From Eledone cirrhosa (lineage: Eukaryota): a stretch of 64,000 nucleotides of DNA. Positions 2,082 to 62,033 of this stretch are shown here, piece after piece. The translations under genes were made by a program, and so were the position numbers. Within the stretch, counting starts at the first letter, position 1. Each line of letters starts with the position of its first letter. The stretch covers positions 266,600,001 to 266,664,000 of the forward strand of contig OZ024743.1 in the NCBI GenBank assembly GCA_964016885.1, read 5' to 3'. The notes beneath the pieces are model-generated. The model did no database searches, had not been told where the DNA came from, and saw only the letters and a list, made by a program, of their open reading frames with translations.

Positions 2082-2376
2082 CGCCGATTATTGAGTCGGG
2101 TAGGATCGATATAGATCGAACCTTGAGCTGATGAGTGGCGAAACGCGCGTCACCTATCAATAAATGCAATGAAGGAATAACCAATCGTCCTGTTATCCTT
2201 TCAATATATTACACTCTGTATAGCTCTACACCTCATCACAGAAGTGAACCTAAACATCGAGTGCTCTCACGGGTGAACCTGCAGTAACTCCTAGTTACAC
2301 CCCCTGGATATTTAGCTCTTTTTTTTTGTCGAGCGCTTACCTGGAACACCATGGAATTGTTCTACAACACTTCCTC
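2082..2376 (+). mobile_element. Inverted pseudo-LTR of the preceding PLE, running into the ORF start
   Basis: 2276-2376 is the reverse complement of 1982-2081 and ends in ATGGAATTGTTCTACAACACTTCC (MELFYNTS). Carries an HHR-like core and AATAAA at ~2159. Confidence 0.8.
2128..2151 (+). ncRNA. Hammerhead-like motif (partial)
   Basis: CTGATGA-gtggc-GAAA-cgcgcg-TC with palindromic stem III. Stem I pairing is poor, so the true 5' core may have been lost at the inversion junction. Confidence 0.5.
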
Positions 2377-9959: not shown

Positions 9960-10980
9960 TGCAACCATACTTTCCTCCTCTCTATTTCTATCATACAAAA
10001 CACTCTTTTTATCCCCCTCTCTGTAGCTGCTAAAATCAATCTCTACCCATCTCTATATCTACAACGACACCGCCTCTCTTATCCCACTCTCTTTATCTAA
10101 GACTAATACATACTTTCACTCCTTATAAATATCTGCACTTATCTCTCCCATTCCCACTTTGTATATCATTCACCCCTAAATTCTAACTCTCTCTATATCT
10201 TCTACACGGCACACTCCCATTATCCTTTTCTGTATATCTACAACCACAAAATTCTCCTCCTCTCTAGTACAGAATACTATCTTCAAATACCTCTCTCTAT
10301 ATCAAGTAACACCAAACTCTCCCACTTACTATATCTAATACACGGTACTATCTTCAAATACCTCTCTCTATATCAAGTAACACCAAACTCTCCCACTTAC
10401 TATATCTAATACACGGAACTATCTTCAAATACCTCTCTCTGTATCAATTAACACCAAACTCTCCCACTTACTATATCTAATACACGGAACTATCTTCAAA
10501 TACCTCTCTCTATATCAATTAACACCAAACTCTCCCACTTACTATATCTAATACACGGTACTATCTTCAAATACCTCTCTCTATATCAATTAACACCAAA
10601 CTCTCCCACTTACTATATCTAATACACGGAACTATCTTCAAATACCTTTCTCTATATCAATTAACACCAAACTCTCCCACTTACTATATCTAATACACGG
10701 TACTCTCATCTAATACTCCTCTCTATATCAATTAATACTAAACTCTCCTCCTCTCTATATCTACTACACGGAACTCTCTTCCAATCCTTCTCTGTATATC
10801 AATTATCACCCAACTCCCCCCTCTCTATATCTACTACACTGAAATCTCTTCAAATTCCTCTCTACATCAATGAACGTCCATCTCTCCCCCTTTATATATC
10901 TAATATACAACACACTCTTCCAACCTTCCTCTCTATATCAACTGCCACCAAACTCTCCACCTCTCTATATCTATATCTAT
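9960..10980. repeat. Minisatellite: ~6 copies of a 71-bp unit (10276-10701) within degenerate ~35-bp units
   Basis: actatcttcaaatacc recurs at 10276, 10347 and onward; each unit has two related ctatatc halves. Confidence 0.9.
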
Positions 10981-17535: not shown

Positions 17536-18476
<941 letters not shown>

Positions 18477-18478
18477 AC

Positions 18479-21400
18479 ATACGAGTTTACACCAACACCA
18501 TCAACACCGATGTAAGAAAATTACAACTTACCAAAAAGCAAGCAGATAGGCTAAAACGAACACTAATTCTAAACATAAAAAAAAAGATTTACAGAGAATT
18601 AAGTCATCAAGAAAAATATAAGCGTAACCTAATACAAGAAATAACTAAGATCACCACACCAAGAGAAAAATTAATATTTATAAATCTTATATGTCTTGAA
18701 GAAATGTACATTGTTCAAGAATGTGACAAGCACTTTAATAAGAAATTAAGGTGGATCAAACAGATGAAACTAAACCAAGAAACTTTAGAGAATAGCGATA
18801 GATATCCTGACAAGATTGACCGTATAAAAATGGCCGACATCTCATTAACAGATGAATTCAACAACAACACAAATATATACGGCAACACTACAGTCGACTC
18901 TGATGAATTATCGATATTACAGCTAGCACCTAAATATGCCACATATAATAAGGTAAATTTGATAAAATGCTTGTCAGAAATAGAAAAATCATTTACAAAA
19001 TTACGTTGGAGCCTCAAAAACAAAAACAAAAGTAACAACATACGCACACACACACACACTTACAACACACATCCCAACAACAACAGACACACAGACACAA
19101 ACAACGATAACAACAACACACACATCAACAATAATAACATACTCAGAAACAAAAACAACAGACACACAGACACAAACAACAATAATAACATACACGGAGA
19201 CAACAACAACAACATACATCTACAACAGTATGCATCAACAACAACAACACACACACATTATATGCCTCTCACCACCACCACAATCTTAACAAACACACAG
19301 ACACAGAAAACAGGTAATGACAGTAACACAGAAGTAAGGGAAGGTAATGGGATTGAAAGGAGAGGGAGACTACCGATACTGACAGAGAAAATAACAAGGA
19401 CGAACACACAGACACACAAAATAGAGTAGATCATAACAATGAGCCAGAGGAAAGAGACAGCAGTAAAAATGAGAGACATAAAAACAACGATGAGGCTGTT
19501 GGTGGAAATAGAAATAGAAACAGCACAACTAACAATAGTACAAATAAAGCAGCAGCCTGGAATTCTACTTTTTATAATCCTTCCGATATGTCCTTCGATC
19601 TACGACGAGTCCACGCCACGACTTTAGCTTTTAACAAAGGCACGCAATTGCCGTCGCAGGTCGATGACCAAACAGAAGCACAATTTAGTATAACTAGATC
19701 TAAACTTAGAAATATTATAGAACAGTATAGCAAGAAGCAAAATAGAATGGAGGCCCAGCAACTGGGAGAAAAATCTGCAAATGGCTTGCGTAAGCTCATA
19801 ATAAAAGGACTGCCAACAACTTCCAGGCCTGGAACAATGACGTACCAGCGTTGTATGGGCTTCGAAAAGACCATAAAACAGCAGTGACCCTCTCACAGGT
19901 GCACCAGCACGGCCAGTCTCTGGAGCTAACATTGCTAGTAACTACATACTCTCCTACTTTCTCTCTCTGATCATACGCCCCATCATTGAAATGTCCCTAG
20001 AAATATGTGACAGCACGGAGGACCTCCTCAGCAGAATCAACGAAAGTAATCGATCTAGGGACCTAACAAACTGGATAATAGATAGCATGGATGTTGTGTC
20101 CCTATATCCATCCATTCACGTGGATTTTGCTGTGGAGAAATGTGTAGAAAAGATCAGTGAGAGCAATGTTGAATTCTGTGGGATTGATACCAGTGAGCTG
20201 GGACTCCTACTTAAACTTACCTATAGTAATGATTATCTAGATACATATTACCTTAGCAGCCTGTGCCCTACAAGACCATCAAGAAGCAGACCACCTACCA
20301 TTACCTCAATAGCCAAGAAAACCCACACAGATAGATGGAACGGGTGGACCAGAGTCATACGGACTCCAGAAAACCACGATGAACTAAAGAAAATGATGCT
20401 CAAGAGGAGGGAGCAGCCATTGGTATTAGCATTGCAGGTGACATAGCTAAACTATTCATGGTATGGTGGGACAATAGACTTAAACTTAAACTTAAAGAAC
20501 AATTAGAAGGTAAAACCTCTTAACCCTGATAATGTACTCCCGCTACGTTGATGATATAAACGTAATAATAACACCCCCACTAGAGAACAGTCAGGAATTA
20601 AAGAAAAACACCATGGAAAGCATCCAGAAAATAGCTAACAGCATCCACCAGAACATTAGAGTTACTATAGACTACCCAAGTAAACACCCCAACCATCGAT
20701 TACCTGTACTAGACACAGAGCTTTGGTTAGAAACTATTAATAACAAAATACAAAAAAAATCCTCCATTCCCATATAGGCCAAACCCATGACTTCCAAATA
20801 TCTGATCCACCGAAACTCAGCTGTTTCGGACCACACCCAAATCAACATACTGATTGCGGATTTGGTACGGGTGATGAGAACCGTGTCCCGCACGTGCAAC
20901 CCCAAAGAACTAGAGAGACAAATACAACGCTTCATCCACCGTATGCAGTTCTCTGGTTACAATCAGAGAGATAAAATCAGAGTGTATAGAGGAGCCAGAA
21001 CCAAATGGGAAAAAATGGTAAATAATGATACAAATGGGACCTGCCCCTTGTATAGGAGCAAATTTTGGAATAGAATAGAAGTAACTAGGAATAAGGTTAA
21101 TAGAATAAACTCATGGTATGATAGCAATAAATACCAGAGTGTAATGTTCATCAATACAAACCCTAGAGGTGAATTAGCTTACACATTTAGAAGGGGTCTA
21201 GTTAAAAATAAACTCAATATTAAGATAGTAGAAAGACCAGGTACCCGCATAAAAACACTTATTAGCAATACATACCATTTTCAAAGGTATAGATAAGAAA
21301 TGTATAATCTGTAAACTAAGCCCCCATATTAACTGTAAAACTAGAAATGTAGTATATAGCATAAGATGTAGTGAAGGACAATGTAGATATAAGAATATAG

Positions 21401-21720
21401 TGTACATAGGTAAGACAGCTCGTAGTATAGGAGAACGGATAAATGAACATTGGCGAGCGCTTCAACATAGAAAAGAATCATCTGTAATCCGCCAACATGC
21501 TAAAATAGAACATAAGGGTAAATTAGAGAACATAGAAATAAAAATAGAATCTACACAGAGAAAAGACGCAATGTTTAGACAAATCACAGAGGCAATAAAC
21601 ATAAATGAACTCCAACCAAAATTAAATAGAAAACATGAATGGAATAGCAACATCACAACTTAAAATTAAGGACAAAATGAAAACACACACACACATAGAA
21701 TAAACAACCAACCAATAAAT
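18479..21720 (+). mobile_element. PLE lineage B, near full length, frameshifted and with internal deletions
   Basis: SMDVVSLYPSI, YSRYVDD, LPVLDTELW, RMQFSGY, Cys-rich linker, YIG endonuclease; Asn/Thr-rich N-terminal region. Confidence 0.92.
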
Positions 21721-22409: not shown

Positions 22410-22448
22410 TGAACCTGAAGATTGCGAAAGCATGAAAGTACTTGTTCA
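22410..22448 (+). ncRNA. Minimal type-I hammerhead ribozyme
   Basis: tgaac-CTGAAGA-t-tgc/gaaa/gca-t-GAAA-gtac-TT-gttca; GNRA loop on stem II, palindromic stem III. Confidence 0.88.
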
Positions 22449-32640: not shown

Positions 32641-33111
32641 TATATAGTCAGCTTGGTCTTCAGACATTAACCTGCACCCCACATTTTTACCTAATTATTT
32701 AATTTCGATACCTTCTGGTGCGTCATCGTATAGATATACCTGCCTTCTTTTATTTACAACTGCTCAGCCCTTCAGTCTATATTGGAGAGATATGCTACCT
32801 CTCTCATAATACACCAATTAGTCAAACTTTCTGCACCTCGAATCATTAGTCACCTGACTCAGTAGATGCCAAAAACTATATACTCACTCTGTGGGGAATA
32901 TCGGGACCGTAGGATACCTACAGCTAATACATCTTCAATATAAGATTGCGCGATGCATGATCTACATTGCTTGAGATAACCGTCACATATGAATGTCTCA
33001 GATAATAATATACACAAGTATACACATATATTACTTTTATATATCTGTATATTCTGTATATATATATCTGTATATATATATATATATATATATACATATA
33101 TATAGCGAGAG

Positions 33112-33149
<38 letters not shown>

Positions 33150-33304
33150 ATATACACGGGTGTGTATGATTGTGTATAGAAGATTATATTAATAAGAGGA
33201 ATTCCAACTTTATCTGATTTACTCGTTTTATTTACAATCCTTTAAAATTTAAAATGGTATTAGAATGAAATAGTATGGTAGAATATTAAATGTTAAGTGT
33301 TAAT

Positions 33305-33343
33305 TGAACAAGTACTTTCATGCTTTCGCAATCTTCAGGTTCA
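33305..33343 (-). ncRNA. Minimal hammerhead, same as 22410
   Basis: Reverse complement of 33417-33455. Confidence 0.88.
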
Positions 33344-33416
33344 TATTTTGTGGTGCCAGTCAAGTTTGCAATTTTCAACAGTTGAAAATTGCAAACTTGA
33401 CTGTCACCACAAAATA

Positions 33417-33455
33417 TGAACCTGAAGATTGCGAAAGCATGAAAGTACTTGTTCA
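33417..33455 (+). ncRNA. Minimal hammerhead, same as 22410
   Basis: tgaac-CTGAAGA-ttgcgaaagcat-GAAA-gtac-TT-gttca. Confidence 0.88.
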
Positions 33456-33572
33456 ATTAACACTTAACATTTAATATTCTACCATACTATTTCATTCTAA
33501 TACCATTATAAATTTTAAAGGATTGTAAATAAAACAAGTAAATCAGACAAAGTTGGAATTCCTTTTATTAAC

Positions 33573-33902
<330 letters not shown>

Positions 33903-35044: not shown

Positions 35045-35222
35045 CAACTGTTTCCATATTTGGCACAAGTCCATCAATTATTCCAGTGCATTACTGGTAC
35101 TATATTTTATCGACCCCATAATGATGAAATGCAGGATTTGAACTCAGACCGCAAAAGGACGTAATTCTATGCTGCAAAGCATGGCGTCCGACCCTCTACA
35201 GATACTGCAAATCCATCGACCT
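35045..35222 (-). mobile_element. tRNA-derived SINE, diverged copy
   Basis: Reverse complement aligns with 48287-48476. Confidence 0.85.
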
Positions 35223-35327
35223 AGCGTAATAACAACGCCGTGGTACGGAATGAAGAGGTAGGGGATTAGATTTCTCGTAGAAGCTTCTGTCCATTTTTCC
35301 GTCTTCAATGTCTTCAAACATTATTTA

Positions 35328-35515
35328 GGTTGATTGGCTGTATCAGTAGAGGGCCAGGCGCCATGCTTTGACGCATAGAGTTACGGCCCTTGTCATTCTG
35401 AGTTCAAATCCCGCCGAGGTTAACTTTGCCTTTCATCCTTATGGAGTCGATAAAATAAAGTACCAGTAATACACTGGGTAATTGCTGGCCTTGTGCCAAA
35501 AGTAGAAACAATTAT
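35328..35515 (+). mobile_element. tRNA-derived SINE
   Basis: B-box GAGTTCAAATCC; central ctttgcctttcatcct..gtcgataaaataaagtaccag. Confidence 0.9.
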
Positions 35516-35739: not shown

Positions 35740-38365
35740 TATCGTACCACTAACCTGAACATTTCTACAAAGAACATACCCGTACCTAGCAGGAAGTTAT
35801 ACCTAAAACTTCTGATACAGAAAACAGACTCGTTCATTAAAAGGTTGCGTTGGCGTGCCTTTTATTTCGATAACCAGGAAAACGCGGACAATAAACAGGA
35901 TAAATTTGGGTTTAAAACTTATAATAACCCTCCGAGAAACCCAGCATTGCTACCCTTCGAAAATGATGTATTGGAACTCATACGGAGTATCAAATTTTGG
36001 AATAGGAGCAATTCCTTCCAGCAGGACCTGAAGAATAGAATTCGTTCTATTAAGGATACTAATGCCGTGCACGCCCACTCCGTCAAAACTGGCAATCTAT
36101 ATCAAGTGGAGCGCAGTACTTACCATCAACTGCTACATAATGCCGTAACTAAGGATTACCGGAAAACCAATCGGAATGTCATTAATGACATCAATGATGC
36201 TGGGTTTAATATCACTTCTGAACTCAACATCCAGGACCGGACTGAACCTCTGGACCCTATTTCTCCCCACTTTACACTTATGGATCACAAACTCAATTTC
36301 GCCAACAACCCCACTATTCGGCAAATTAACCGCACGAGGTTTGATTTAGGTAGACTTAGTAAAAGGATTTTAGATAGAATTATACCTAAAATTAGAAGCT
36401 TGTCCCCTCTTACACTGTGGAACAATTCTTTCGTGGTGATTGATTGGTTCAATGGCATATGCAACAAGGAATATTGCCGTTTTATCCAATTCGAAATCAA
36501 TAACTACTACTCCTCCATCACTTTACCTTTCTTCTTAGAGCTATCAATTTCGCTAAAACGATCACGGTGATTAAGGAATTCGAAGTTGATGTCATCCTCA
36601 ATGCCCCTAAATCGGTGATTAATTTCGACGAGTCTATTTGGATAAAAAAATCTAATAGTACCCCATTCGACGTGAGCATGGGCGCCAGCGATTCGGCGGA
36701 GGTTACAGATCTTATCGGCCTTTTCCTTCTTTTCTCTATCAAGGAAGAATTCCCCAATGTGGGCGGTGGCTTGTTCTGCGATGACGGTCTTTTGACCATG
36801 ACAAAGCGCCGTCCACGCGCTTGCGACAGGTTCAGAAAAGAACTCACAACCTTCTTTAAAGGCTTCAACCTCTCCATACAGGTTGAGGCTAACCTCTCGG
36901 TCGTTAATTACCTCGACATTACACTCAATGTGTCGAATGGCTTGCATTACTCGTATAGAAAGCCGAATGATACGCTTAATTACATAAGTAAGCATGCTAC
37001 CCATCCAGCGAGCATAACCAAGAACCTGGTAAGTAACGTTTCTTTGCGGCTTTCCCGTCTATCTACAAACGAGCATATTTTCACCGACCATTCCACATTT
37101 TACAATGAAGCTCTTGCTCGGAGCGGATTTGTCGATAAGGTAGCATATACTAAGTATGAGCATAGACCAAGGAAAAATAGATCCCGACGCATTATATGGT
37201 ATAACCCACCATATAATATGGAGGTGGCCACACCATTAGCTAAGATCTTTCTCTCCCTTATTAAGAAGCATTTTCCCTCAGCACATAAATATAATAAAAT
37301 CTTTTATAGAAATACCATTAACATATCTTACCCTACGACTCCTAACATTGCACATAACATCACTGCTTCGAATTTAGCTAAATTACCTACCTGTAGGAAC
37401 ATGTGCAACCTTGTAGCTAGTACTAACTATAATTATAGGAATCGGGCTGACTGCCCCCTATCCGGGAAATGCCTCTCCAGTAACACTCTCTACAAATGTA
37501 AGGTCGAAACACTCACGTCCCGTAGGGCCTACGTTGGGTTAACCGCCAATAGATTGAAGCAGCGTCTTTACATGCACATCCATTCTTTAATAACCCTTTA
37601 AGAAGTCATATGACGTCACTTTTGGCTTATATCTGGAGTCGAAAAGACAACCACACCCAATATAGGTTACACTGAGAGATCCTAGCTAAGACTAGATCGT
37701 ATAACGGAAATAAAAGACCTTGTGATCTTTGCGCCGCTGAAGCCCAGGAAATACACTACGCCAATGACCACATCCTAAACAACAAATCTGAGGCAATTTC
37801 GGCTTGTAAACACAAATTGCATAAAACCTTCCTGTATTACAGCCCCACATTATACCCAAACGGATAGTACGAACAATACGCGGATAATTTACGTCTTGAT
37901 GTGGGAGCTAAGTATATTTTATACCATTACTTATTTGTATAAGTAAGTATACCTTACCCGTATGTTTTGTGAAGGTACGTATGCTTTCTCGTACGTTTAT
38001 ATGCTTGTATTTGTTATAGGTGCATATATTATATTATATATACTGATATATGTGTATATGGTTATGTGTATATGTGTATATGTTTATTAGCCTACGACTT
38101 CATTTACACCTTAAACGTGGTTTTCGTCTTTGCGTGTATTTTTTCTCATCGCTCCACATAATGACGTTTTATCTCCGCATTTTCCCGTTCATTGCCAGGG
38201 AACGTCTTCACGAACCAAAGTATCGTCTTGCTGTTTTCAATCGGTTGCATCGTTTTTCGAAATATTTAATTCTGCGTTCAGAGATTGATTATTTTAGTTT
38301 CAGAAGATCTCTTTAAGGGTGAAAGCAGCGATTCTTTGCTTAAACTTTAATCTGTTATTTTAATA
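35740..38365 (+). mobile_element. Near full-length PLE, lineage A (Naiad-like, tentative), frameshifted
   Basis: STKNIPVPS..FIKRLRWRAF, KTGNLY, MGASDSAEVTD, FCDD, VNYLDITL, WYNPPY, CPLSGKC..YVGLT, CDLC..LNNKSE..CKH; coding ends ~37867, then 3' UTR. Confidence 0.93.
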
Positions 38366-40571: not shown

Positions 40572-40660
<89 letters not shown>

Positions 40661-40714
40661 TAAACAAATAATGAATAAAACAATGAAACAGTTCCTTATA
40701 TTAAACAAAAAAAG

Positions 40715-40869
40715 TTCATTATTTAACGATCGTTTCTAGGATATATATGTGTTAGAATTGGCATGCATATTCAACAGATCTATGTACAAAATTATACAAA
40801 ATTATACAAACTATCAAGATTAAATATACATACCAAACACACATATATGCCGTCTTCAGAAATAATGAA
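40715..40869 (-). ncRNA. Hammerhead with 116-nt stem II region
   Basis: Reverse complement of 47610-47764. Confidence 0.8.
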
Positions 40870-41471
40870 ATATATTTATTGATAATAACTACAATTCAAA
40901 ATTTCAGGTCCGTTTGGGAACGGAGTTCAAATTGACCAATGAAAATACAAAAATTTTTTATGCAGTTTGGTGTGTGTATATACATGTAACTAACCTCGTA
41001 CACATATTTATACAAAGATATATGCTCAACATGCATACGCATGCCAAAAAGATGTATGCAAATACAAAAATTCAAGGCTAATGTCTCTGTAAGTTTATAA
41101 TCCACAGATAAAATGCGTATAGACACATAAATATGAAATAAGTGTATACACATATTCACATACTCACACATATCCGTACACTCACACACACACGCGCGTA
41201 TATGCATAAACATACACATAATTACGAACATACACACACCCCCACACACATATATATGTGGATATAATATTATCATAAGCACATGGATATTAAAGCACGC
41301 ACATATACACTGCCACACACATTTAGATCCAGATACAGAAATTAGGTGGGAGGGGGGGAGAGGTCAGTATTCAACGGTTTCGGCAGACTGCTTATTTATA
41401 GATGTATCTATAAACTTATGAATAAAAAGAAAAGAAAAGAAAAAGAAAAAAGAAAAAAGAAATATATCAAG

Positions 41472-41514
<43 letters not shown>

Positions 41515-41983
41515 ACACATACAACACACACACACACACATATATAAACATATACATACATACATACATACATATACACACATACATATATATACATATA
41601 CACACATATATACACATATATACACACACACATATATACACACACATATATACACATACACGCACATATACATACACATACATACTTATATACATACAGA
41701 CATACACATACATACATATATATACACACATCAACATACAGACATACATACATACATACACACATACACACATACATACACACACATACATACTCATACA
41801 TAGACATAGATATATATTCACACACACATACGCACTTACATATACGCATATATACAAATACTTACGCATCCATATATCCGTATATACATACAAACACCAC
41901 TACAGTCTCACACAACTCAGACATACAAAGAAAAAGGTATATACATATACATATACACATACAAATAGAGATACATATACATA

Positions 41984-42017
<34 letters not shown>

Positions 42018-42219
42018 CACATATATATACATATATATATATATACACATACATACATGCACACACACATACACATACATACATACACACATACACACAT
42101 ACATATATAGTCACACACACAAACACACCTACACATACATACACATACACATATATAAAGATATATATACACACACATACACACACACATATATAATAAA
42201 CATATATATATATATACAC

Positions 42220-42254
<35 letters not shown>

Positions 42255-43120
42255 TACACATATAGATACATACATACACATACATACATACATATACACA
42301 CATATATAAATACACACATACATACATACATACATACACACACACATACATACACACACATACATATTCATACATAGACATAGATATATATTCACACACA
42401 CATACGCACTTACATATACGCATATATACAAATACATACGCATCCATATATGCGTATATACATACAAACACCACTACACTCTCACACAACTCAGACATAC
42501 AAAGAAAAAGGTATATACATATACATATATACACACATAAATAGAGATACATATACACATATATATATATATATACATACATATATATATATATATACCC
42601 ACACACACATACAACCATAAACACACATACAAACACATACATACATACATATATACATATATATACACACACACAAAAACACACATACACATATATATTT
42701 ACATATATATATATATATACATACATATACACACCCTCACATATATATATATACACATAAGTTATATTATAATAATAAATAATATATATATATATACACG
42801 TACAAATATATATATACATAGACATACACATATATATATACACACACACACACACACTCACATATATATGTGCGCACACGTACATATATACACATACACA
42901 CATATACACATAAACATATACATGTGCATACATGTACATACACACATATACCCACATAGATACGAAGATACACATATATATAGAGAGACATACATATACA
43001 TACACATATATACACACACATATATACACACATATATATACACACACATACACGCCCACACACACATACACATATACATATATATATATATACACACACA
43101 TATACACACATATATATACA

Positions 43121-43168
<48 letters not shown>

Positions 43169-44342
43169 ATCATACATTTTTATTTGCATGCGCATATATG
43201 TATTTTTATACTCAGATATAAACACCCAAACATATATACACCTACCTACATATATATTCATACATACACGCTTACAAATACAGATGATAATAGTATGGGG
43301 GAAAGGGGGGTGGAGAAGGGGATTATAGTAAATATATGTTTCAAGAAACATAGAATATTAATCTGTATTTGGATCTCAATATATGTTTTTACATAGTTTC
43401 AGTGTTAGGAAATGCAAGAAATAAGGTAAAATTATGCATTTCAAAATAAGTATACCATTAATTATAGGTTAACTAAACTAAAGATAGTTAACATATTGAT
43501 TTCTAATGTGTAAATTACTTAGGTTTATGATATTTGAAGCAGAATTTTGAAGTTAAATAGTAGTAGAGTATTAATTATAGTATAACTAAATTAAAATTAT
43601 TAACGTTATGGTATCAATATTAGGAAATGAATTTAGTAATAGGGAAAAAACAAATAAAGTATTACATCGGTAGTAGAATATAAATTATAGGTTAACTAAA
43701 TTAAAAATTATATATTAATTTCTATAGTATATGTTAATTAGGTATATAATAAATAAAACAGATATTGTATTTTATCAATAGCAGAATATAATTATATGCA
43801 AATAGAAATCAAAATTAATACATATATATATACATATACATACACATATATATATATACACATATATATACATACATACACATACATATACATACATACA
43901 TATACATATTTTTTCAAAAATTGCAAAGAATATATTAACTAGGTATACATCCAAAACACATCCCATTCTATGATTACATGACACTCTGCAATCCGTCTGT
44001 ATTAGGATACTAATATTAAGCCAATTAAATTAAATTTTTAGGTTGACTAAATTTAAAACCAAATTATAAATATATTTCTAAAATGTATATTAATTAGGTC
44101 TATAATACTAAAAATTATTTCTCTGTCATTGAATACACGATATTTTGTTATATTTTATCTGTAAAGGAATTTTAATAAAGGGTTAAATAAATTAAAATTA
44201 ATCTATAAATTAAATTACTAAGTATATATTAGTAATATTTAAAGGTTTTTCACAATTTATGATTACACAATATTTTATATTCTCATCTGTAGTAGAATTT
44301 TAATTAAATTAAATTTATAGGTTAACTAACATTTAAATTAAA

Positions 44343-44639
44343 TTATATATTAATTTCTAAAATAATGTTATTAATTAGGTTTATAATATTTAAATGTTTT
44401 TTTAGTTTATGATTACACGATATAATTAATTCCTGTCGTTTATTTAATAGGATATCCTTAGATTTCATTATTTCAAATAGTTCTCGGGAACATAATCTGC
44501 ATTCATTTCTATTATTTTGATAAGGGGTGGCTCTTTTGAGCACACTCCAGGTCAAATCATATTCTATATTCTTATTTTTATAACTATTGATTTTTTCTGC
44601 TAGAGATGTTGTATTAGCCAGTGCGGCATTTTTAAAACT
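44343..44639 (-). pseudogene. C-terminal fragment of lineage-A PLE GIY-YIG endonuclease
   Basis: SFKNAALANTTSLAEKI..TWSVLKRATPYQ..CRLCSRE..LLNKRQELIISCNH, collinear with 37580-37830. Confidence 0.85.
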
Positions 44640-45230
44640 AAGTTTTAAAAATGCCGCACTGGCATTTTTAAAACTTAGTTTTTATAAAACTTAGTTTTTT
44701 ATAGTTAACCTATAATTTATATTCTACTACCGATGTAATACTTTATTTGTTTTTTCCCTATTACTAAATTCATTTCCTAATATTGATACCATAACGTTAA
44801 TAATTTTAATTTAGTTATACTATAATTAATACTCTACTACTATTTAACTTCAAAATTCTGCTTCAAATATCATAAACCTAACTAATTTACACATTAGAAA
44901 TCAATATGTTAACTATCTTTAGTTTAGTTAACCTATAATTAATGGTATACTTATTTTGAAATGCATAATTTTACCTTATTTCTTGCATTTCCTAACACTG
45001 AAACTATGTAAAAACATATATTGAGATCCAAATACAGATTAATATTCTATGTTTCTTGAAACATATATTTACTATAATCCCCTTCTCCACCCCCCCTTTC
45101 CCCCATACTATTAATCTGTATTTGTAAGCGTGTATGTATGAATATATATGTAGGTAGGTGTATATATGTTTGGGTGTTTATATCTGAGTATAAAAATACA
45201 TATATGCGCATGCAAATAAAAATGTATGAT

Positions 45231-45290
<60 letters not shown>

Positions 45291-46397
45291 TGTATATATA
45301 TGTGTGTATATGTGTGTGTATATATATATATATGTATATGTGTATGTGTGTGTGGGCGTGTATGTGTGTGTATATATATGTGTGTATATATGTGTGTGTA
45401 TATATGTGTATGTATATGTATGTCTCTCTATATATATGTGTATCTTCGTATCTATGTGGGTATATGTGTGTATGTACATGTATGCACCTGTATATGTTTA
45501 TGTGTATATGTGTGTATGTGTATATATGTACGTGTGCGCACATATATATGTGAGTGTGTGTGTGTGTGTGTATATATATATGTGTATGTCTATGTATATA
45601 TATATTTGTACGTGTATATATATATATATTATTTATTATTATAATATAACTTATTTGTATATATATATATGTGAGGGTGTGTATATGTATGTATATATAT
45701 ATATATGTAAATATATATGTGTATGTGTGTTTTTGTGTGTGTGTATATATATGTATATATGTATGTATGTATGTGTTTGTATGTGTGTTTATGGTTGTAT
45801 GTGTGTGTGGGTATATATATATATATATGTATGTATATATATATATATGTGTATATGTATCTCTATTTATGTGTGTATATATGTATATGTATATACCTTT
45901 TTCTTTGTATGTCTGAGTTGTGTGAGAGTGTAGTGGTGTTTGTATGTATATACGCATATATGGATGCGTATGTATTTGTATATATGCGTATATGTAAGTG
46001 CGTATGTGTGTGTGAATATATATCTATGTCTATGTATGAATATGTATGTGTGTGTATGTATGTGTGTGTGTATGTATGTATGTATGTATGTGTGTATTTA
46101 TATATGTGTGTATATGTATGTATGTATGTGTATGTATGTATCTATATGTGTATGTATATGTGTATATATATATATATATATGTGTATATATATATATATA
46201 TATATGTTTATTATATATGTGTGTGTATGTGTGTGTATATATATCTTTATATATGTGTATGTGTATGTATGTGTATGTATGTGTAGGTGTGTGTGTGTGT
46301 GTGACTATATATGTATGTGTGTATGTGTGTATGTATGTATGTGTATGTGTGTGTGCATGTATGTATGTGTATATATATATATATGTATATATATGTG

Positions 46398-46431
<34 letters not shown>

Positions 46432-46952
46432 TGTATATGTATCTCTATTTGTATGTGTATATGTATATGTATATACCTTTTTCTTAGTATGTCTGAGTCG
46501 TGTGAGAGTGTAGTGGTGTTTGTATGTATATACGGATATATGGATGCGTAAGTATTTGTATATATGCGTATATGTAAGTGCGTATGTGTGTGTGAATATA
46601 TATCTATGTCTATGTATGAGTATGTATGTGTGTGTATGTATGTGTGTATGTGTGTATGTATGTATATGTAAGTGCGTATGTGTGTGTGAATATATATCTA
46701 TGTCTATGTATGAGTATGTATGTGTCTGTATGTATATGTGTGTATATATATGTATGTATGTGTATGTCTGTATGTATATAAGTATGTATGTGTATGTATA
46801 TGTGCGTGTATGTGTATATATGTGTGTGTATATATGTGTGTGTGTATATATGTGTATATATGTGTGTATATGTATATATATGTATGTGTGTATATGTATG
46901 TATGTATGTATGTATATGTTTATATATGTGTGTGTGTGTGTGTTGTATGTGT

Positions 46953-47000
<48 letters not shown>

Positions 47001-47609
47001 TTGATACATTTCTTTTTTCTTTTTTCTTTTTCTTTTCTTTTCTTTTTATTTATAAGTTTATAGATACATCTATAAATAAGCAGTCTGCCGAAACCGTTGA
47101 ATACTGACCTTTCCCCCCCTCCCACCTAATTTCTGTATCTGGATCTAAATGTGTGTGGCAGTGTATATGTGCGTGCTTTAATATCCATGTGCTTATGATA
47201 ATATTATATCCACATATATATGTGTGTGGGGGTGTGTGGGGGTGTGTATGTTCGTAATTATGTGTATGTTTATGCATATACGCGCGTGTGTGTGTGAGTG
47301 TACGGATATGTGTGAGTATGTGAATATGTGTATACACTTATTTCATATTTATGTGTCTATACGCATTTTATCTGTGGATTATAAACTTACAGAGACATTA
47401 GCCTTGAATTTTTGTATTTGCATACATCTTTTTGGCATGCGTATGCATGTTGAGCATATATCTTTGTATAAATATGTGTACGAGGTTAGTTACATGTATA
47501 TACACACACCAAACTGCATAAAAAATTTTTGTATTTTCATTGGTCAATTTGAACTCCGTTCCCAAACGGACCTGAAATTTTGAATTGTAGTTATTATCAA
47601 TAAATATAT

Positions 47610-47764
47610 TTCATTATTTCTGAAGACGGCATATATGTGTGTTTGGTATGTATATTTAATCTTGATAGTTTGTATAATTTTGTATAATTTTGTACATAGA
47701 TCTGTTGAATATGCATGCCAATTCTAACACATATATATCCTAGAAACGATCGTTAAATAATGAA
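47610..47764 (+). ncRNA. Hammerhead with 116-nt stem II region
   Basis: ttcattattt-CTGAAGA-[cggcatatatgtgt..tggtatgtatattt...gaatatgcatgcca..acacatatatatccta]-GAAA-cgatcg-TT-aaataatgaa; 10-bp stem I. Confidence 0.8.
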
Positions 47765-48145
47765 CTTTTTTTGTTTAATATAAGGAACTGTTTCATTGTT
47801 TTATTCATTATTTGTTTAATATTTTATCTTGACTCTGTATTCCGTTTATCTTTCACCGAAAGTGATTTTTCATTGCATCTCTTCTTTCCATGATATCCGG
47901 AATACATTGTGTTCTTCATACGGATTGGACACTACCGTAAACTCTTGGTAGATTTATCTACATATATATATATATATATATATAAAAGACGTCTTTTATA
48001 TTATTTACGTGTTTTATATTATTTATGTCTTTTATATTATTGTTCTGCATCCTCCTGCATTGAACCACCTAGGTACTATGACATATCCTGTGTATTTGCT
48101 GGCATTAGCGTACATCTGTGCGCTTATGTTACTAGATATATTAAA

Positions 48146-48254
<109 letters not shown>

Positions 48255-48286
48255 GATTCCAGCATACATATGCTTGCATTATAATA

Positions 48287-48476
48287 GGGCGGTGGATTGG
48301 CAGTATCGGTAGAGGGTCGGACGCCATGCTTTCCAGCATAGTTACGTCCCTTTATGATCTGAGTTCAAATCCCGCCGAGGTTGACTTTGCCTTTCATCCT
48401 TACGGGGTCGATAAAATAAAGTACAAGTAATGTACTGGGTAATTGCTGGCCTTGTGCCTAAAGTAGAAACAATTAT
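48287..48476 (+). mobile_element. tRNA-derived SINE (~190 bp); central domain resembles Meta/MESC-type (from memory)
   Basis: A-box-like TGGCAGTATCGG, B-box GAGTTCAAATCC; five dispersed copies in the window. Confidence 0.9.
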
Positions 48477-48918
48477 AATAGGATGGTAATATATGACCAA
48501 CGACATATCCTGTGATTGTATAAGCGTACATACATAACATATATAAAGGTATATAAGTATATGTATATGTACATGTTATTTTGGATGCCCGTTGACTCTC
48601 CTGATTTCCTGTGCCCTTGGTCATGGTTTGATATTCATCCCACAGGGGCACTAACTCACCCTCCTCACCAATCAAGCTGGGTGAGGGCGCTGGATTAGTC
48701 GTTAATCACTGCCTACATGTTACCAGTACTACTCAGGACAAAATCTGTTTGATTTGTTTGAAATCATCATACGAATGAAACGGTTTTAGTGCTGCAGAAG
48801 TCATTTCTCTACATAATAAAGAAACCTATACTCTATCAACGTATTGTGGCCTTTTGTAACTCTGGGTACACCCCAACACCATTTGGGAACCTACATATAT
48901 ATATATAGAAATATATAC

Positions 48919-50289: not shown

Positions 50290-50932
50290 TAAAGTAACCA
50301 GTGAAAGACTTGATACATCTACATATGTATACGTGTGTGTATTCATATGCATACTAGTATTTCAGTATACATATATGGATGTACATTTTTAACTTAATTG
50401 TTTAAGCATCAGTCATACAAAAGTGAGTTACAAACGAAACGAAATTTAATTTCGTTTCGTTATTTGTTTTTATCGTCTCCGTTGAACCGGTACGTACTCA
50501 CACTCTATGCAAATTGGTCTCCCCACTACTAATTTTCATAGAAAAAGCATATAACGATATGTGCTTTTACGATTCTCCAGAAAGGCCGGTAGATAGGTAA
50601 ATATTGCTGATGAGTTGTAACAACAACGAAACTAGTTCCATATTCCTTGTCTGGCTTTCTGGAGAATAGAGGAAAGGTGTTTCCTCAAAAACCGGTATGA
50701 CTCTAAAAACCGGTTTGTCTGTGTGTTTACATACAGAATAGCTGGATACTCACAGTAAAGTAACCAGTGAAAGACTTGGTACATCTACATATGTATACGT
50801 GTGTGTATTCATATGCATACTAGTATTTCAGTATACATATATGTATGTACATTTTTAACTTAATTGTTTAAGCGTCAGTCGTACAAAAGTGAGTTACAAA
50901 CGAAACGAAATTTAATTTCGTTTCGTTATTTG

Positions 50933-51860: not shown

Positions 51861-51988
51861 AAAGTTTTATTTAAAATTGTTCGGTTACAACAAGTAAATA
51901 TTTTATAACTGATATAAAGCACTCGACAAGTTTTTGGAGTAGATATACGATATTAAACAAATGGAAACTATATTTATAAAACCATATT

Positions 51989-52054
51989 TATTTCATTATA
52001 CATATTTCAGGGATATCATATTAAAAATATGGCATGCCTTCGTCAGATAAAATA
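51989..52054 (-). ncRNA. Type-I hammerhead ribozyme
   Basis: Inverted copy of 52910-52975. Confidence 0.75.
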
Positions 52055-52909
52055 CAATATATAAACAGTTTTATAAATAATTTTGACGTACAATAAATAT
52101 AAGCGACCATTAAGGTAGGAAGCTGGCTTGGTAGTGAAGTGTTTATAAATATTTAGTGTTAAGCACAGTTATAAAGAAAGATGGAGAAAAAGAAGAAATA
52201 TATGTAAAGAAAAACAGAGAGGAAAATAGAGAGTGAGATAGGGGAGAGAGAAATAGGGAGGAGGTGAAAAAGAGAGGCAACCGAAGAGCTATATCTAGAG
52301 AGAGGGATGATAGAGTTACATCTTTACGTCATGTCCTATCAATTTGAATTATTATCCCTCTCTCTAGATATAGCTCTTTCTTCTCTTCTCTCTTTATGTA
52401 TGATGAAGTTTATGTATCTTTCGTTTTGACTTTGCCTCTCATGTTTCTCTCTTATTTCTCTCTTGATTTTCACCTCCCCCTATATAATTATTATTATTTT
52501 TTCTCCCTCATTCTTTACCTCCCACCTCTCTCTCTCTCTGTCTTCTCTTCATCTCCATTTTTTCTTTCTCTCCGTCTCTTCTCTAACTGTGCTTAACACT
52601 ATAACTAAATAATTACCGTACTCCCTCCCTCTTAAAACTCTCAATTTGTATAATGAATTATTATTATTCATCTGTTGCCTTCGGTTGCCTCTCTTTTTTC
52701 ACCTCCTCCCTATTTCTCTCTCCCCTATCTCTCTCTATTTTTCTCTCTGTTTTTCTTTACATACATTTCTTCTTTTTCTCCATCTTTCTTTATAACTGTG
52801 CTTAACACTAAATATTTATAAACACTTCACTACCAAGCCAGCTTCCTACCTTAATGGTCGCTTATATTTATGGTACGTCAAAATTATTTATAAAACTGTT
52901 TATATATTG

Positions 52910-52975
52910 TATTTTATCTGACGAAGGCATGCCATATTTTTAATATGGTATCCCTGAAATATGTATAATGAAATA
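52910..52975 (+). ncRNA. Type-I hammerhead ribozyme
   Basis: tattttat-CTGACGA-aggc-atgccatatt/ttt/aatatggtat-ccct-GAAA-tatgta-TA-atgaaata. Confidence 0.8.
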
Positions 52976-53014
52976 AATATGGTTTTATAAATATAGTTTC
53001 CATTTGTTTAATAT

Positions 53015-53051
<37 letters not shown>

Positions 53052-53954: not shown

Positions 53955-54004
<50 letters not shown>

Positions 54005-54010
<6 letters not shown>

Positions 54011-54193
54011 GTTTCTACTTTAGGCACAAGGCCAGCAATTACCCAGTGCATTACTGGTACTTTATTTTATCGACCCCGTAAGGATGAAAGGCAAAGTCAA
54101 CCTCGGCGGGATTTGAACTCAGACGTAAAGGGACGTAACTATGCTGGAAAGCATGGCGTCCAACCCTCTACCGATACTGCCAATCCACCGCCC
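54005..54193 (-). mobile_element. tRNA-derived SINE
   Basis: Reverse complement of the 48287 family; in (TA)n. Confidence 0.92.
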
Positions 54194-54199
54194 TATATA

Positions 54200-56100
54200 T
54201 ATAATAACTAGAAATTGATTAACATATAAATAAACATGAATAATCACAGGAGATAATTTTTACAAGTGTATAAGCACACATAGCTAGGTAGGTAACTAAA
54301 TAAAGTTAACCAGAACTTCAAAAATAGATACCTTATAATATGATTAATCTTCCCTGTATATATTCCATTAAAGAAATATATTTAACCAATTAATCGAATG
54401 GTAAACCATGGAGGCCGGTACTTGGATTTTCAACAAGGAAGAAGTCCAGCGATCTATGTTTACACTTCAAGTTCAAATCAGCGGCTGGCCAGCAACACGT
54501 GCTGTATCTACTAGAAATACACACATCACACATCATACCAGCTTCGTCACAGTGGCGTGAATAGGGTTATCGACAACTAGAAACAGCAGTCAAATCCTTT
54601 CAACAGAGTTAGCTCTACAATTAAGGAGCCGTATTTATATATCTATATCCAAAATTAAGATAATGAAAATTATGGGTGTCATACCAGAAAGACATGCGCC
54701 ATATCACCCGCAAAATAAGCTCTAAGATTCTAACGAATAGGTCCGAGCATTTTATAATAACTAGAAATTGATTAACATATAAATAAACATGAATAATCAC
54801 AGGAGATAATTTTTACAAGTGTATAAGCACACATAGCTAGGTAGGTAACTAAATAAATTTAACCAGAACTTCAAACATAGATACCTTATAATATGATTAA
54901 TCTTCCCTGTATATATTCCATTAAAGAAATATATTTAACCAATTAATCGAATGGTAAACCATGGAGGCCGGTACTTGTATTTTCAACAAGGAAGAAGTCC
55001 AGCGATCTATGTTTACACTTCAAGTTCAAATCAGCGACTGGCCAGCAACACGTGCTGTATCTACTAGAAATACACACATCATACCAGTTTCGTCACAGTG
55101 GCGTGAATAGGGTTATCGACAACTAGAAACAGCAGTCAAATCCTTTCAACAGAGTTAGCTCTACACTTAAGGAGCCGTATTTATATATCTATATCCAAAA
55201 TTAAGATAATGAAAATTATGGGTGTCATGCCAGAAAGACATGCGCCATATCACACGCAAAATAAGCTCTAAGATTCTAACGAATAGGTCCGAGCATTTTA
55301 TAATAACTAGAAATTGATTAACATATAAATAAACATGAATAATCACAGGAGATAATTTTTACAAGTGTATAAGCACACATAGCTAGGTAGGTAACTAGGT
55401 AACTAAGTTGACCAGAACTTCGAAAATAGACACTTTATAATATGATTAATCTTACCTGTATATATTCCATTAAAGAAATATATTTCATCAATTAATCGAA
55501 TGTTAAACCATGGAGGCCGGTACTTGGATTTTCAACAAGGAAGTTTCGTCAGCTTCGTCACAGTGGCGTGAATAGGGTTATCGACAACTAGAAACAGCAG
55601 TCAAATTCTTTCAACAGAGTTAGCTCTACAATTAAGGAGTCGTATTTATATATCTATATCCAAAGTTAAGATAATAAAAATTATGGGTGTCATGCCATGA
55701 TGTGTGTATTTCTAGTAGATACAACACGTGTTGCTGGCCAGCCGCTGATTTGAACTTGAAGTGTAAATATAGATCGCTGGACTTCTTCCTTGTTGAAAAT
55801 CCATGGTTTACCATTCGATTAATTGGTTAAATATATTTCTTTAATGGAATATATACAGGGAAGATTAATCATATTATAAGGTATCTATTTTTGAAGTTCT
55901 GGTTAACTTTATTTAGTTACCTACCTAGCTATGTGTGCTTATACACTTGTAAAAATTATCTCCTGTGATTATTCATGTTAATCAATTTCTAGTTATTATA
56001 AAATGCTCGGACCTATTCGTTAGAATCTTAGAGCTTATTCTGCGGGTGGTATGGCGCATGTCTTTCTGGCATGACACATAATTTTTATTATCTTAATTTT

Positions 56101-60059: not shown

Positions 60060-61358
60060 TTATACTTCTCTTAGGTCAGTGTTGTTTGTTTGGGTGTTGT
60101 TGTTGTTCCACTCATTCTTTCTGTTTAGCTTTGGTCTTCTAATTTCTATTTCACTGGCCTCTCTGATTTGCCTATCTGCTGGGTCATTCCTATGTTTAGA
60201 TATTATTCTAATTTCTATGTTGTCTATGTTACCGTCATGTTGTTGTCTAGCATGTTCGTATAGTACTGACCCGTTTTTTCGTCCTTTTAGTTCCCCCCAG
60301 TGTTGGTCTATCCTTTCACCTATGCTACGAGCTGTCTCACCTATGTATGTTGTTGTCGTGTTTCTGCAAGTACCCTCTGTACATCTTATGCTATAGACTA
60401 CGTTTCTAGTTTTACAGTTTATCCGGGGGTTCACCTTACATATGATACATTTCCTATTGGTACATTGGGTTTTCTTAAAAGGGTAGGTTTTGCTGATCAG
60501 GGATTTTATGGTGGTTCCTGGCTTTTCTACCACCTTTATTTTTAAGTGGGTCTTTCTCAGGGCCTTTCTACACTGGTTAGCTAATTTCCCTCCAGGGGTG
60601 GCGTCCACAAACATGACACTCTGATATCTCTGGTTGTCGTACCATGATGTGGCCTTCCCTATCTTATGTCTAGCCCTATCTAAGCTATTCCATGATTTGC
60701 TCCTGTATAGTGGGCAAATTCCTTTCATGTCCAGTTCTATGAGGGTCTTATACTTTTCCATGGCTCCTTCGTATACTCTGACTCTGTCTCTTTGGTTGTA
60801 GCCAGAGAACTGCATGCGGTTGATGAAGTGTTGGATGTGTCCTTCCATTTCTGTTGGGTCGCACATGCTGGACACATTCTTCATCACTCGTACCAAATCT
60901 GCGATCAGAATATTAAACTTAGCACTACTGGACATTGCTGAGTTTTTGAGTATCAGGTATTTGGAGGCCATGGGTTTAGCATAGTGTGAGTGGAGAATTT
61001 GAGCTCTCTCGTCTATAGTGTTAATCCAGAGTTCTGTGTCTAATACAGGTAGTCTATTGTTAGGGTGTTTGGAAGGGAAGTATATAGTTACAGTTATACT
61101 CTGGTGTATGGAATTAGCTATCTGCTGGATGCTTTCCATCGTGCTACGTTCTAAATCAAACTTGTTAGTGCTCTCTAGTGGGGGTGTTCTTATAACTATA
61201 TTGATATCGTCTACATAACGAGAGTACATGGTGAGGTCTATGGAGCTTTCATTAAGGAGATCTTTAAGTCTCCTTTCCCACCATACCATGAAAAGGTTGG
61301 CAACATCACCAGCTATGCTGACGCCGATGGCTGCTCCCTCATTTTGGGTGTAGATTTT
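60060..61358 (-). CDS. PLE RT (C-terminal half) plus GIY-YIG endonuclease, ~430 codons without stops, no native start
   Basis: GAAIGVSIAGDVANLFM, YSRYVDD, LPVLDTELW, CTNRKCIIC, NVVYSIRC..YIGETARS..H, EASEI..LNRKNEW. Confidence 0.92.
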   Translation of the reverse strand, partial: KIYTQNEGAAIGVSIAGDVANLFMVWWERRLKDLLNESSIDLTMYSRYVDDINIVIRTPPLESTNKFDLERSTMESIQQIANSIHQSITVTIYFPSKHPNNRLPVLDTELWINTIDERAQILHSHYAKPMASKYLILKNSAMSSSAKFNILIADLVRVMKNVSSMCDPTEMEGHIQHFINRMQFSGYNQRDRVRVYEGAMEKYKTLIELDMKGICPLYRSKSWNSLDRARHKIGKATSWYDNQRYQSVMFVDATPGGKLANQCRKALRKTHLKIKVVEKPGTTIKSLISKTYPFKKTQCTNRKCIICKVNPRINCKTRNVVYSIRCTEGTCRNTTTTYIGETARSIGERIDQHWGELKGRKNGSVLYEHARQQHDGNIDNIEIRIISKHRNDPADRQIREASEIEIRRPKLNRKNEWNNNNTQTNNTDLREV

Positions 61359-61522
61359 CAAAATGTATGGAATTGTTAAATATTTCCCAAATAACATTCT
61401 AATTCATTTGCTGTCCTTTTTGGTTTTTCGCCCCTTGAACACTTTTTTTCACATATTGCTGCCACCATATGTATAGATGCATTGCTATCTAAAATCAACA
61501 GTCTCTCTCTCTCCCTCGCTCT

Positions 61523-61597
<75 letters not shown>

Positions 61598-61763
61598 CCT
61601 CTCTCCCTCTCTCTCTATATATACATTAGTGTCTGCAGTTCTGTTCACATGCCAACACCAGAGCAAGAATGAATGAAGTGTTGATTCTACTGACATGGCT
61701 ATAAAATTGAGGCTTGTTTGCATAATTGCAAACGAATCGAATATTATTATTTATATTCGAAAA

Positions 61764-61955
61764 GGGCGGTGGATTGGCAGTATCGGTAGAGGGTCGGACG
61801 TCATGCTTTCCAGCATAGTTACGTCCCTTTACGATCTGAGTTCAAATCCCGCCGAGGTTCACTTTGCCTTTCATCCTTACGGGGTCGTTAAAATAAAGTA
61901 CCAGTAATGCACTGGGTATTTGCTGGCCTTGTGCCTAAAGTAGAAACAATTATTA
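61764..61955 (+). mobile_element. tRNA-derived SINE with 11-bp target-site duplication
   Basis: ATATTCGAAAA at 61753-61763 and 61956-61966. Confidence 0.93.
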
Positions 61956-62033
61956 ATATTCGAAAAACTCAGATTACATTTATTGTATTCAGCCATGTAA
62001 ATTTTCTTTTATATATATATATATATGTATGTA

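What the first reader, a model, noticed from the sequence alone, without database searches (positions are those of the whole stretch)
40652..47827. 7.2-kb inverted structure: a ~3.7-kb microsatellite-like stretch behaves as a PLE 3' UTR/pLTR
Seen: what looks like simple (TA/CA/TG) DNA is two ~3 kb inverted arms with conserved unique landmarks. On the minus strand it follows the GIY-YIG C-terminus (44343-44639) directly and ends just beyond an HHR. The arms differ mainly in repeat lengths. Inference: PLEs here carry and spread kilobases of compound microsatellite, which also resembles their insertion target, a possible feedback loop for the repeat load. Read-through transcription would give long dsRNA, a potential ADAR or small-RNA substrate.
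Basis: partly seen in the sequence, partly recalled or inferred. Interest (0 to 1): 0.7.

Follow-up and report, generated by a model that had tools for sequence, protein, structure and literature searches.

The report
Penelope retrotransposon carrying a growing microsatellite
This mirror-image stretch is a back-to-back insertion of two truncated copies of a young Penelope-type jumping gene, likely made in one event, whose unusually long tail end carries kilobases of microsatellite-like DNA to hundreds of places in the genome; the cargo is real and likely grew over the family's history, but it adds under 0.1% of the genome.

Summary
Confirmed, with corrected limits (40652-47964). The structure is two 5'-truncated, head-to-head copies of a young Hydra-clade Penelope-like element (unit 6.7-7 kb, intact 813-822-aa ORFs elsewhere). 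The 3.7-kb region after the stop codon is element sequence; only about 1.7 kb of it is microsatellite-like. That core travels with the family (at least 483 copies; 10 of 10 position-picked copies long enough to test carry it). It is absent from the nearest sister family (0.75-1.1-kb spacer), shorter in basal copies, and diverges as fast as or faster than the other spacer DNA, so it is likely cargo that grew by slippage. One arm ends at a fixed site, the other 137 nt further, both in (TA)n. This fits published two-site, two-strand priming; inverted pairs are the family's usual product. The feedback loop exists (2 self-nested insertions) but is small: cores are about 0.03% of the genome and 0.04-0.15% of TA tracts. 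The dsRNA/ADAR idea could not be tested. The scan already reported twin priming, the RNA-start stop and the long-stem hammerhead on other DNA of this genome; the microsatellite cargo and its growth are what this window adds.

The parts
40577..40654 (.). (TA)39 target tract, left flank; no target-site duplication can be read in it
40652..44640 (-). Left arm: 5'-truncated copy, 3,989 nt, from inside the endonuclease domain to end site 0
44343..44640 (-). Last ~99 codons of the ORF (GIY-YIG C-terminus with CxxC and CxH)
43163..44342 (-). Proximal AT-rich spacer with degenerate ~140-nt internal repeats; weakly alignable (59%) to the sister family's spacer
41475..43162 (-). Compound TG/TA microsatellite-like core, left copy; 88% purine/pyrimidine alternation, T/G-rich on the sense strand, 7 (TA)>=8 tracts
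40941..41474 (-). Distal unique spacer
40715..40869 (-). Type I hammerhead motif with ~116-nt stem II region, left copy (cleavage predicted, untested)
44641..44701 (.). Head-to-head junction: short templated snap-back copies of the left arm's own end, then AT-rich slippage
44702..47964 (+). Right arm: 5'-truncated copy, 3,263 nt, ending at the tail site +137
45239..46997 (+). Microsatellite-like core, right copy (one private 52-nt duplication)
47539..47543 (+). ATTGG (reverse CCAAT box) 74 nt before the inferred RNA start; kept in the sister family; mirror copy ends at 40940
   Evidence: promoter role inferred
47613..47613 (+). Position -214: hard 5' stop of short copies, the A of an initiator-like TTCATT; inferred transcription start (mirror 40866)
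47610..47764 (+). Type I hammerhead motif, right copy: stem I 47610-19/47755-64, CUGAAGA 47620-26, GAAA 47743, palindromic stem III, predicted cut after 47754
47828..47964 (+). 137-nt tail = first part of the element's 5' UTR; begins with a predicted bulged hairpin; present on one arm only
47962..47985 (.). (TA)n target tract, right flank

Best explanation
The 7.3-kb structure is a head-to-head pair of 5'-truncated copies of a young Hydra-clade Penelope-like element whose unit carries a 3.5-kb spacer with a microsatellite core between ORF and hammerhead, likely made in one event when both cut strands of a (TA)n tract primed reverse transcription at the element's two fixed start sites. Shown: family membership, the two fixed ends 137 nt apart, one per arm, the (TA)n flanks, near-identity of paired arms, inheritance of the core. 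Inferred: the RT-endonuclease nicks both strands; one 3'-OH primes at site 0 (left arm, 3,989 nt copied) and the other at site +137 (right arm, 3,263 nt); the two cDNA ends were joined with short templated fills; the RNA begins at -214. Inferred for the core: host-like repeat DNA was gained once in the spacer after the split from the sister family, has no sequence constraint, and lengthened by slippage and internal duplication in the source lineage. Its TA tracts are occasional landing sites for later insertions.
For: Intact ORFs with Hydra motifs followed by the same spacer, in tandem units of 6.65-6.9 kb. All 14 inverted structures with both ends visible have one 0 end and one +133/137 end. 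34 of 45 zero ends on C1 0-99.6 Mb have an outward-facing tail end within 15 kb, chance 0.015 each. The tail is on the longer arm in 8 of 15 pairs, and neither window arm is a subset of the other. Paired arms differ by 0.12% against 2.4% between loci (28 of 29 loci usable); at 10 of 10 window substitutions one arm has a private allele, 4 left and 6 right. 960 head-to-head joints at -214 with variable joints. Independent short-read data show the 0 end running into (TA)n (425 reads in X20, contigs in X1 and X4) and a fold at -214 (X4). Core: 36 other copies extracted between unique anchors; 10 of 10 testable position-picked copies carry it; sister family lacks it in 26 of 30 loci measured. Core diverges 3.4-10% where the ORF diverges about 0.5-2.3% between subfamilies. 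Tree rooted on the sister: 2.0-2.7 kb basal, then 3.2, 3.6-4.0, later 3.2-4.5 kb. Frangieh et al. 2024 (PMC11167929) showed two internal RT starts bounding the tail and extension of both strands in vitro for another PLE.
Against: One true 0/0 pair was found (L188), so the one-of-each rule has exceptions. Tail ends outnumber zero ends about 2:1 by exact pattern (4,307 vs 2,033), and 66 of 100 listed tail ends had no exact-pattern zero partner; many but not all of the 20 fetched proved to be variant pairs. Tandem arrays of 3-5 units are not explained by an RNA that starts at -214 and spans one unit. Gene conversion between arms could also make them alike. The growth trend rests on a short alignment (832 columns), a distant outgroup and 6 basal copies; length later fell again in one young clade (3.2 kb); two truncated rows (L035, L193) have long branches; the simple correlation was weak (rho -0.37, p 0.02). 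No source locus of the spacer was found, so capture versus in-place growth is open.
Confidence: 0.85

Rival explanations
1. A Foldback/MITE-like DNA transposon with 3-kb terminal inverted repeats that captured a PLE fragment in its centre.
For: Many top hits of the end landmark come as inverted pairs 1-10 kb apart; ~565-bp palindromic minis look like MITEs.
Against: The arms are collinear with the 3' end of an RT-endonuclease ORF and its tandem arrays; the ends are unequal by 137 nt; the centre differs at every locus and is always element sequence; mini joints vary locus by locus.
Confidence: 0.01
2. Snap-back of a single cDNA, or self-priming on an antisense RNA (Arkhipova et al. 2013), made the second arm.
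For: Short snap-back fills are present in this junction; arms share private lineage variants; PMC3846280 proposes self-priming for head-to-head palindromes.
Against: A snap-back arm must be a subset of the first arm; here the left arm is 950 nt longer at its 5' side and the right 137 nt longer at its 3' side, and the tail falls on the shorter arm in 7 of 15 pairs.
Confidence: 0.08
3. Local microsatellite expansion followed by a local inverted duplication, or an assembly fold-back artefact.
For: No long reads were available to span this locus.
Against: The core is shared at 90-99% with copies on other contigs; arms carry private substitutions on both sides; asymmetric ends and a templated junction; the same end types occur in independent short-read runs.
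Confidence: 0.02
4. The microsatellite core is functional: it is selected because it helps the element (target tethering by UA/UG pairing, RNA-protein binding, or self-landing sites).
For: Kept in all testable family copies; a second Hydra family has a TG/TA block with the same strand polarity; 2 self-nested insertions among about 111, against 0.06-0.5 expected (p 0.002-0.08).
Against: Length varies 1.0-2.6 kb and divergence equals or exceeds the other spacer DNA; the sister family spread without it (2,862 search candidates); priming sites lie outside it; same polarity in two families has even odds; regional clustering can explain the nesting.
Confidence: 0.1

Closest known systems
Hydra clade of C-terminal EN+ Penelope-like elements, incl. 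Hydra-1_Obim (Craig et al. 2021, PMC8557442; abstract, passages, sections 3, 11, 12, supplement part 2 read)
   Same: RW[KR], DKT, CxCx5C linker, CxxC and CxH, no CCHH, type I hammerhead near the 3' end (H17 often U), (TA)n targets, tandem and inverted 5'-truncated copies, tail on one end.
   Different: Listed Hydra consensuses are 1.1-3.0 kb with 4-9-bp stem II; this unit is 6.7-7 kb with a 3.5-kb spacer, a ~116-nt stem II region and a 137-nt tail (30-40 bp is given as typical for PLEs). Its hammerhead flanks differ from Hydra-1_Obim's.
Poseidon PAc of Anolis carolinensis (Frangieh et al. 2024, PMC11167929; parts 1-2 of 4 read)
   Same: Two internal RT start sites bound the tail; both target strands are extended; hammerhead cleavage is not needed.
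   Different: Other clade; shown in vitro there, only inferred from genomic copies here.
Pen1_Av of Adineta vaga (Arkhipova et al. 2013, PMC3846280; passages and section 6 read)
   Same: 3' pLTR separated from the ORF by a long spacer ascribed to captured host DNA.
   Different: 0.9-1.5 kb and unrelated between copies there; here one 2-4.5-kb spacer is inherited by hundreds of copies and holds a microsatellite core.
Microsatellites born inside or targeted by L1, Alu and other non-LTR elements (review PMC3812793; passages read)
   Same: Retroelements carry internal repeats that change by slippage; some elements target microsatellites.
   Different: Short proto-microsatellites and poly(A) there; a 1-2.6-kb compound core containing the element's own target here.
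Drosophila virilis Penelope (Schostak et al. 2008, PMC2377424; passages read)
   Same: Large inverted terminal repeats of variable size; transcription start with initiator inside the pLTR.
   Different: Short pLTR with an intron; no intron or microsatellite spacer equivalent was seen here.

Membership tests
Penelope-like elements (EN+) | Single ORF with RT and C-terminal GIY-YIG endonuclease | tested here: met
   813-822-aa ORFs with YRDD and IVY...YIG; Pfam gave no RT or GIY-YIG hit, so this rests on motifs and on 479 relatives at E<=1e-30
Penelope-like elements (EN+) | Tandem/partial-tandem pLTRs, inverted 5'-truncated copy, tail on one end | tested here: met
Penelope-like elements (EN+) | Type I hammerhead near the 3' end | tested here: met
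   Core, 10-bp stem I, palindromic stem III; 97.7% of cells paired with 2 compensatory pairs in 7 sequences, not beyond shuffles (41-63 of 500). Rfam gave no hit here
Penelope-like elements (EN+) | Ribozyme self-cleavage; RT and nuclease activity | not testable with these tools
   needs in vitro assays
Hydra clade | RWK motif | tested here: met
   RWR at residue 37 (conservative variant)
Hydra clade | DKG changed to DKT | tested here: met
   DKT at 115
Hydra clade | CxCx5C linker; CxxC and CxH around the conserved E and N; no CCHH | tested here: met
   CNCRNKANC 673, CRLC 771, CNH 799; no CxxC between IVY and YIG
Hydra clade | (TA)n insertion preference | tested here: met
   all 100 ends examined run into simple repeat, median 57 nt (the end patterns required a repeat start); 6,340 exact end-TA joints
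Hydra clade | Generally short (<3 kb); descriptive, not diagnostic | tested here: not met
   unit 6.65-6.9 kb
Hydra clade | Placement in the RT phylogeny with named Hydra sequences | not tested
   no named Hydra protein was fetched; membership rests on motifs
TIR DNA transposon (Foldback/MITE) | Equal terminal inverted repeats, fixed ends, transposase | tested here: not met
Non-LTR retrozyme | Non-coding tandem monomers each with a hammerhead | tested here: not met
   the unit encodes an intact ORF

The most novel reading that the evidence does not exclude
Several (TA)n-targeting Hydra elements in this genome independently took compound microsatellite into their RNA and let it grow, so that each insertion delivers new targets for itself and other elements and leaves multi-kilobase hairpins; summed over all families and past waves this loop would be a main source of the genome's microsatellite load and of long dsRNA for editing.
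Probability: 0.1. Interest if true: 0.65.

Novelty: new variant of a known kind. Interest (0 to 1): 0.36.

Why it matters
It shows that DNA which repeat finders mask as simple repeat can be inherited retroelement cargo, which affects repeat annotation and microsatellite markers in such genomes. It extends the Hydra clade from under 3 kb to 7 kb. The family is young, has many intact ORFs and two sharply fixed ends, so it is a good substrate for testing two-site priming in a second PLE clade. The proposed genome-scale feedback is small for this family.

Tried and rejected
Rfam found no hammerhead in the structure, only sub-threshold miRNA-model hits on repeats. Pfam recognised neither the fragment nor the full ORF. 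No RNA holder listed. An editing footprint in DNA copies was sought: A>G 20/206 against T>C 22/306, p 0.35; nothing found, and the test is weak. A first flank screen found 0-1 of 100 ends inside family DNA, but it masked simple repeats and missed nesting; targeted checks confirmed L165 and L193/L197 and rejected L185 and L191/L192. A second, degenerate hammerhead in the spacer was looked for and not supported. No non-family source of the spacer appeared among fetched loci. -214 as ribozyme cut site was rejected: the predicted cut is at -73 and stem III cannot form at -214. The first tree was midpoint-rooted on a truncated row and was replaced. Paper searches that found no report of a PLE with a kilobase microsatellite spacer; this covers open-access text only, and bioRxiv supplements and Repbase were not visible.
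Full report
Observation. The two arms are real: 40652-43698 and 44702-47827 align with 3,050 matches, 10 clear substitutions and 12 gaps that are mostly repeat-unit changes. Only about 1.7 kb per arm is microsatellite-like; the rest is unique AT-rich DNA. The left arm continues into a GIY-YIG C-terminus (44343-44640, minus), 98% identical to the end of an intact ORF. The window is G000:C4:266,600,001-266,664,000 of a 3.0-Gb genome; earlier AI notes call it a probable octopus, which I did not test.

The family. The end landmark has 1,917 candidates genome-wide; the 40 scored are 99-100% identical. The endonuclease fragment leads to ORFs of 813-822 aa, often in tandem units of 6.65-6.9 kb: about 290 nt of 5' UTR, ORF, about 3.5 kb of spacer, hammerhead, end. 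The protein has RWR, DKT, YRDD, CxCx5C, CxxC and CxH and lacks CCHH, which are the Hydra-clade marks in Craig et al. 2021. Listed Hydra consensuses are 1.1-3.0 kb. I did not build a tree with named Hydra proteins.

Does the microsatellite travel? Yes. Landmarks inside the core appear in order in the copies that reach that far among 20 fetched loci. 36 further cores lie between the same two unique anchors, 1.0-2.6 kb long and 0.9-9.6% diverged from the window's. Of 20 loci picked by position rather than by core, 10 reach from endonuclease to hammerhead, and all 10 have spacers of 1,976-4,022 nt with 25-47% alternating purine/pyrimidine runs. One exact core landmark occurs 483 times (70 in the youngest variant), a lower bound.

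History of the core. A sister family (78% aa identical in the endonuclease, same hammerhead type, same two ends) has spacers of 745-1,143 nt without such runs: 26 of 30 loci were measurable, one gave 1.7 kb, one had 3% alternating runs, and seven are near-identical duplicates. Rooted on this sister, the family forms a ladder: 2.0-2.7 kb in six basal copies, then 3.2, 3.6 and 3.9-4.0 kb, and 3.2-4.5 kb in later clades apart from two deleted copies, with three starred steps. Between subfamilies the core differs by 3.4-10% and the distal spacer by 2-10%, the ORF by about 0.5-2.3% and the hammerhead end by 0-2.4% (three ORF rows were over-long extractions). I read the core as unconstrained cargo that was gained once and grew. 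The alignment is short and the outgroup distant, so the direction is likely, not proven. A. vaga Pen1 has a shorter captured spacer in the same position. A second Hydra family at the start of this window has a 2.1-2.3-kb spacer with a 340-470-nt TG/TA block, found between its anchors in 6 of 20 loci, most others being too short. The neighbour at 35755-38360 has only about 0.5 kb.

Ends and mechanism. Outer ends fall at two sites, 0 (40652 here) and +137 (47964), each running into (TA)n. All 14 inverted structures with both ends visible have one of each. Exact patterns give 4,307 tail ends, 2,033 zero ends and 305 read-throughs, controls 0. On C1 0-99.6 Mb, 34 of 45 zero ends face away from a tail end within 15 kb (chance 0.015 each). 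One true 0/0 pair exists (L188). The tail is on the longer arm in 8 of 15 pairs (hand-read), and neither window arm contains the other, which argues against snap-back of one cDNA. Paired arms are near-identical (0.12% against 2.4% between loci), and the window's 10 substitutions are private to one arm or the other, so the arms likely started identical. Frangieh et al. 2024 showed for another PLE that both strands are cut and extended, that RT starts at two internal sites bounding the tail, and that hammerhead cleavage is dispensable. The simplest reading is one cDNA from each target strand, joined in the middle; the 61-nt junction holds short templated snap-back copies. Multi-unit arrays need longer RNAs, circles or template jumps, which I did not resolve.

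RNA start and ribozyme. Short copies stop at -214, giving about 565-bp palindromes; 960 such joints exist, with variable joint letters. The site is the A of TTCATT (initiator consensus recalled from memory), 74 nt after an ATTGG kept in the sister family; I infer a transcription start. The hammerhead has a 10-bp stem I, CUGAAGA, a long stem II, GAAA and a palindromic stem III, with the cut predicted at -73. Stems are kept with two compensatory pairs, which in 7 sequences is not beyond shuffles. Independent short-read data show the 0 end into (TA)n, a fold at -214, and relatives with a stem II about 85 nt shorter.

Feedback loop. Each core holds 6-7 (TA)>=8 tracts. Other elements have landed in cores (L083, L089), and two family copies sit inside older family cores (L165, L193/L197) among about 111 insertions, against 0.06-0.5 expected (p 0.002-0.08). 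But 483 cores are about 0.03% of the genome (0.06% with the whole spacer) and 0.04-0.15% of TA tracts at the two densities measured, 707 and 2,584 per Mb. Even several-fold undercounting leaves this family a minor source. The dsRNA/ADAR idea follows from the geometry if the locus is read through, but could not be tested.

Relation to earlier work. The inverted form, tail and (TA)n preference are published. The scan has noted twin priming, the RNA-start stop and the long-stem hammerhead on other DNA of this genome; I had reached the first two before reading those notes. Their twin-hairpin idea was new to me: a bulged hairpin folds just after site 0 (z -3.3 in L081, -2.5 in the window), and a similar one can be drawn by eye after +137 but was not the predicted minimum fold. 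Papers seen: PMC8557442 (abstract, passages, sections 3, 11, 12, supplement part 2), PMC11167929 and PMC4209133 (parts 1-2 of 4), PMC3846280 (passages, section 6), PMC2377424, PMC13282606, PMC3812793 (passages), bioRxiv 10.64898/2026.07.22.740005 (part 1 of 5).

Verdict. A real, ordinary-mechanism insertion of an unusually long Hydra-type element. The new part is the inherited and likely growing microsatellite cargo; its genome-wide effect is small. New variant of a known kind, interest 0.36.

Noticed in passing
window 30-2208 (minus), continuing into L198: A second Hydra-type family (44% aa identical) with a 2.1-2.3-kb spacer holding a 340-470-nt TG/TA block that travels with it; 3,633 search candidates.
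   Followed up: yes
window 35755-38360 (plus): Frameshifted near-full Hydra-type copy of a third family with a ~0.5-kb 3' region and a degenerate hammerhead near 38290-38350.
   Followed up: partly
window 33052-33708: Head-to-head mini-palindrome of another family with compact hammerheads at 33338 (minus) and 33422 (plus); a third copy at 22415.
   Followed up: no
window 18036-18442 and 21287-21693; 60060-61403: Inverted GIY-YIG ends and RT fragments of a different PLE type.
   Followed up: no
window 48280-48480, 54004-54201, 61760-61958, 35046-35515: A ~200-bp SINE-like repeat in at least five copies, 79-97% identical.
   Followed up: no
window 4467-5501 and 10276-10973: 55-bp (18.8 copies) and 71-bp (9.9 copies) minisatellites.
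   Followed up: no
window 51940-53024 and 50589-50660: 310-bp inverted repeat, 96%; sub-threshold Rfam HH9 hammerhead match.
   Followed up: no
L145-L151 (G000:C4 about 203.96-204.67 Mb and 233.5 Mb): Seven near-identical loci of the sister family, likely segmental duplications.
   Followed up: no
L081/L090 ORF residues ~480-570: N/K/T/H-rich low-complexity stretch between RT thumb and linker, absent from most relatives of ~700-720 aa.
   Followed up: no
G000:C6:49.528-49.562 Mb: Array of five same-strand units plus an inverted copy, all with an identical endonuclease segment.
   Followed up: no
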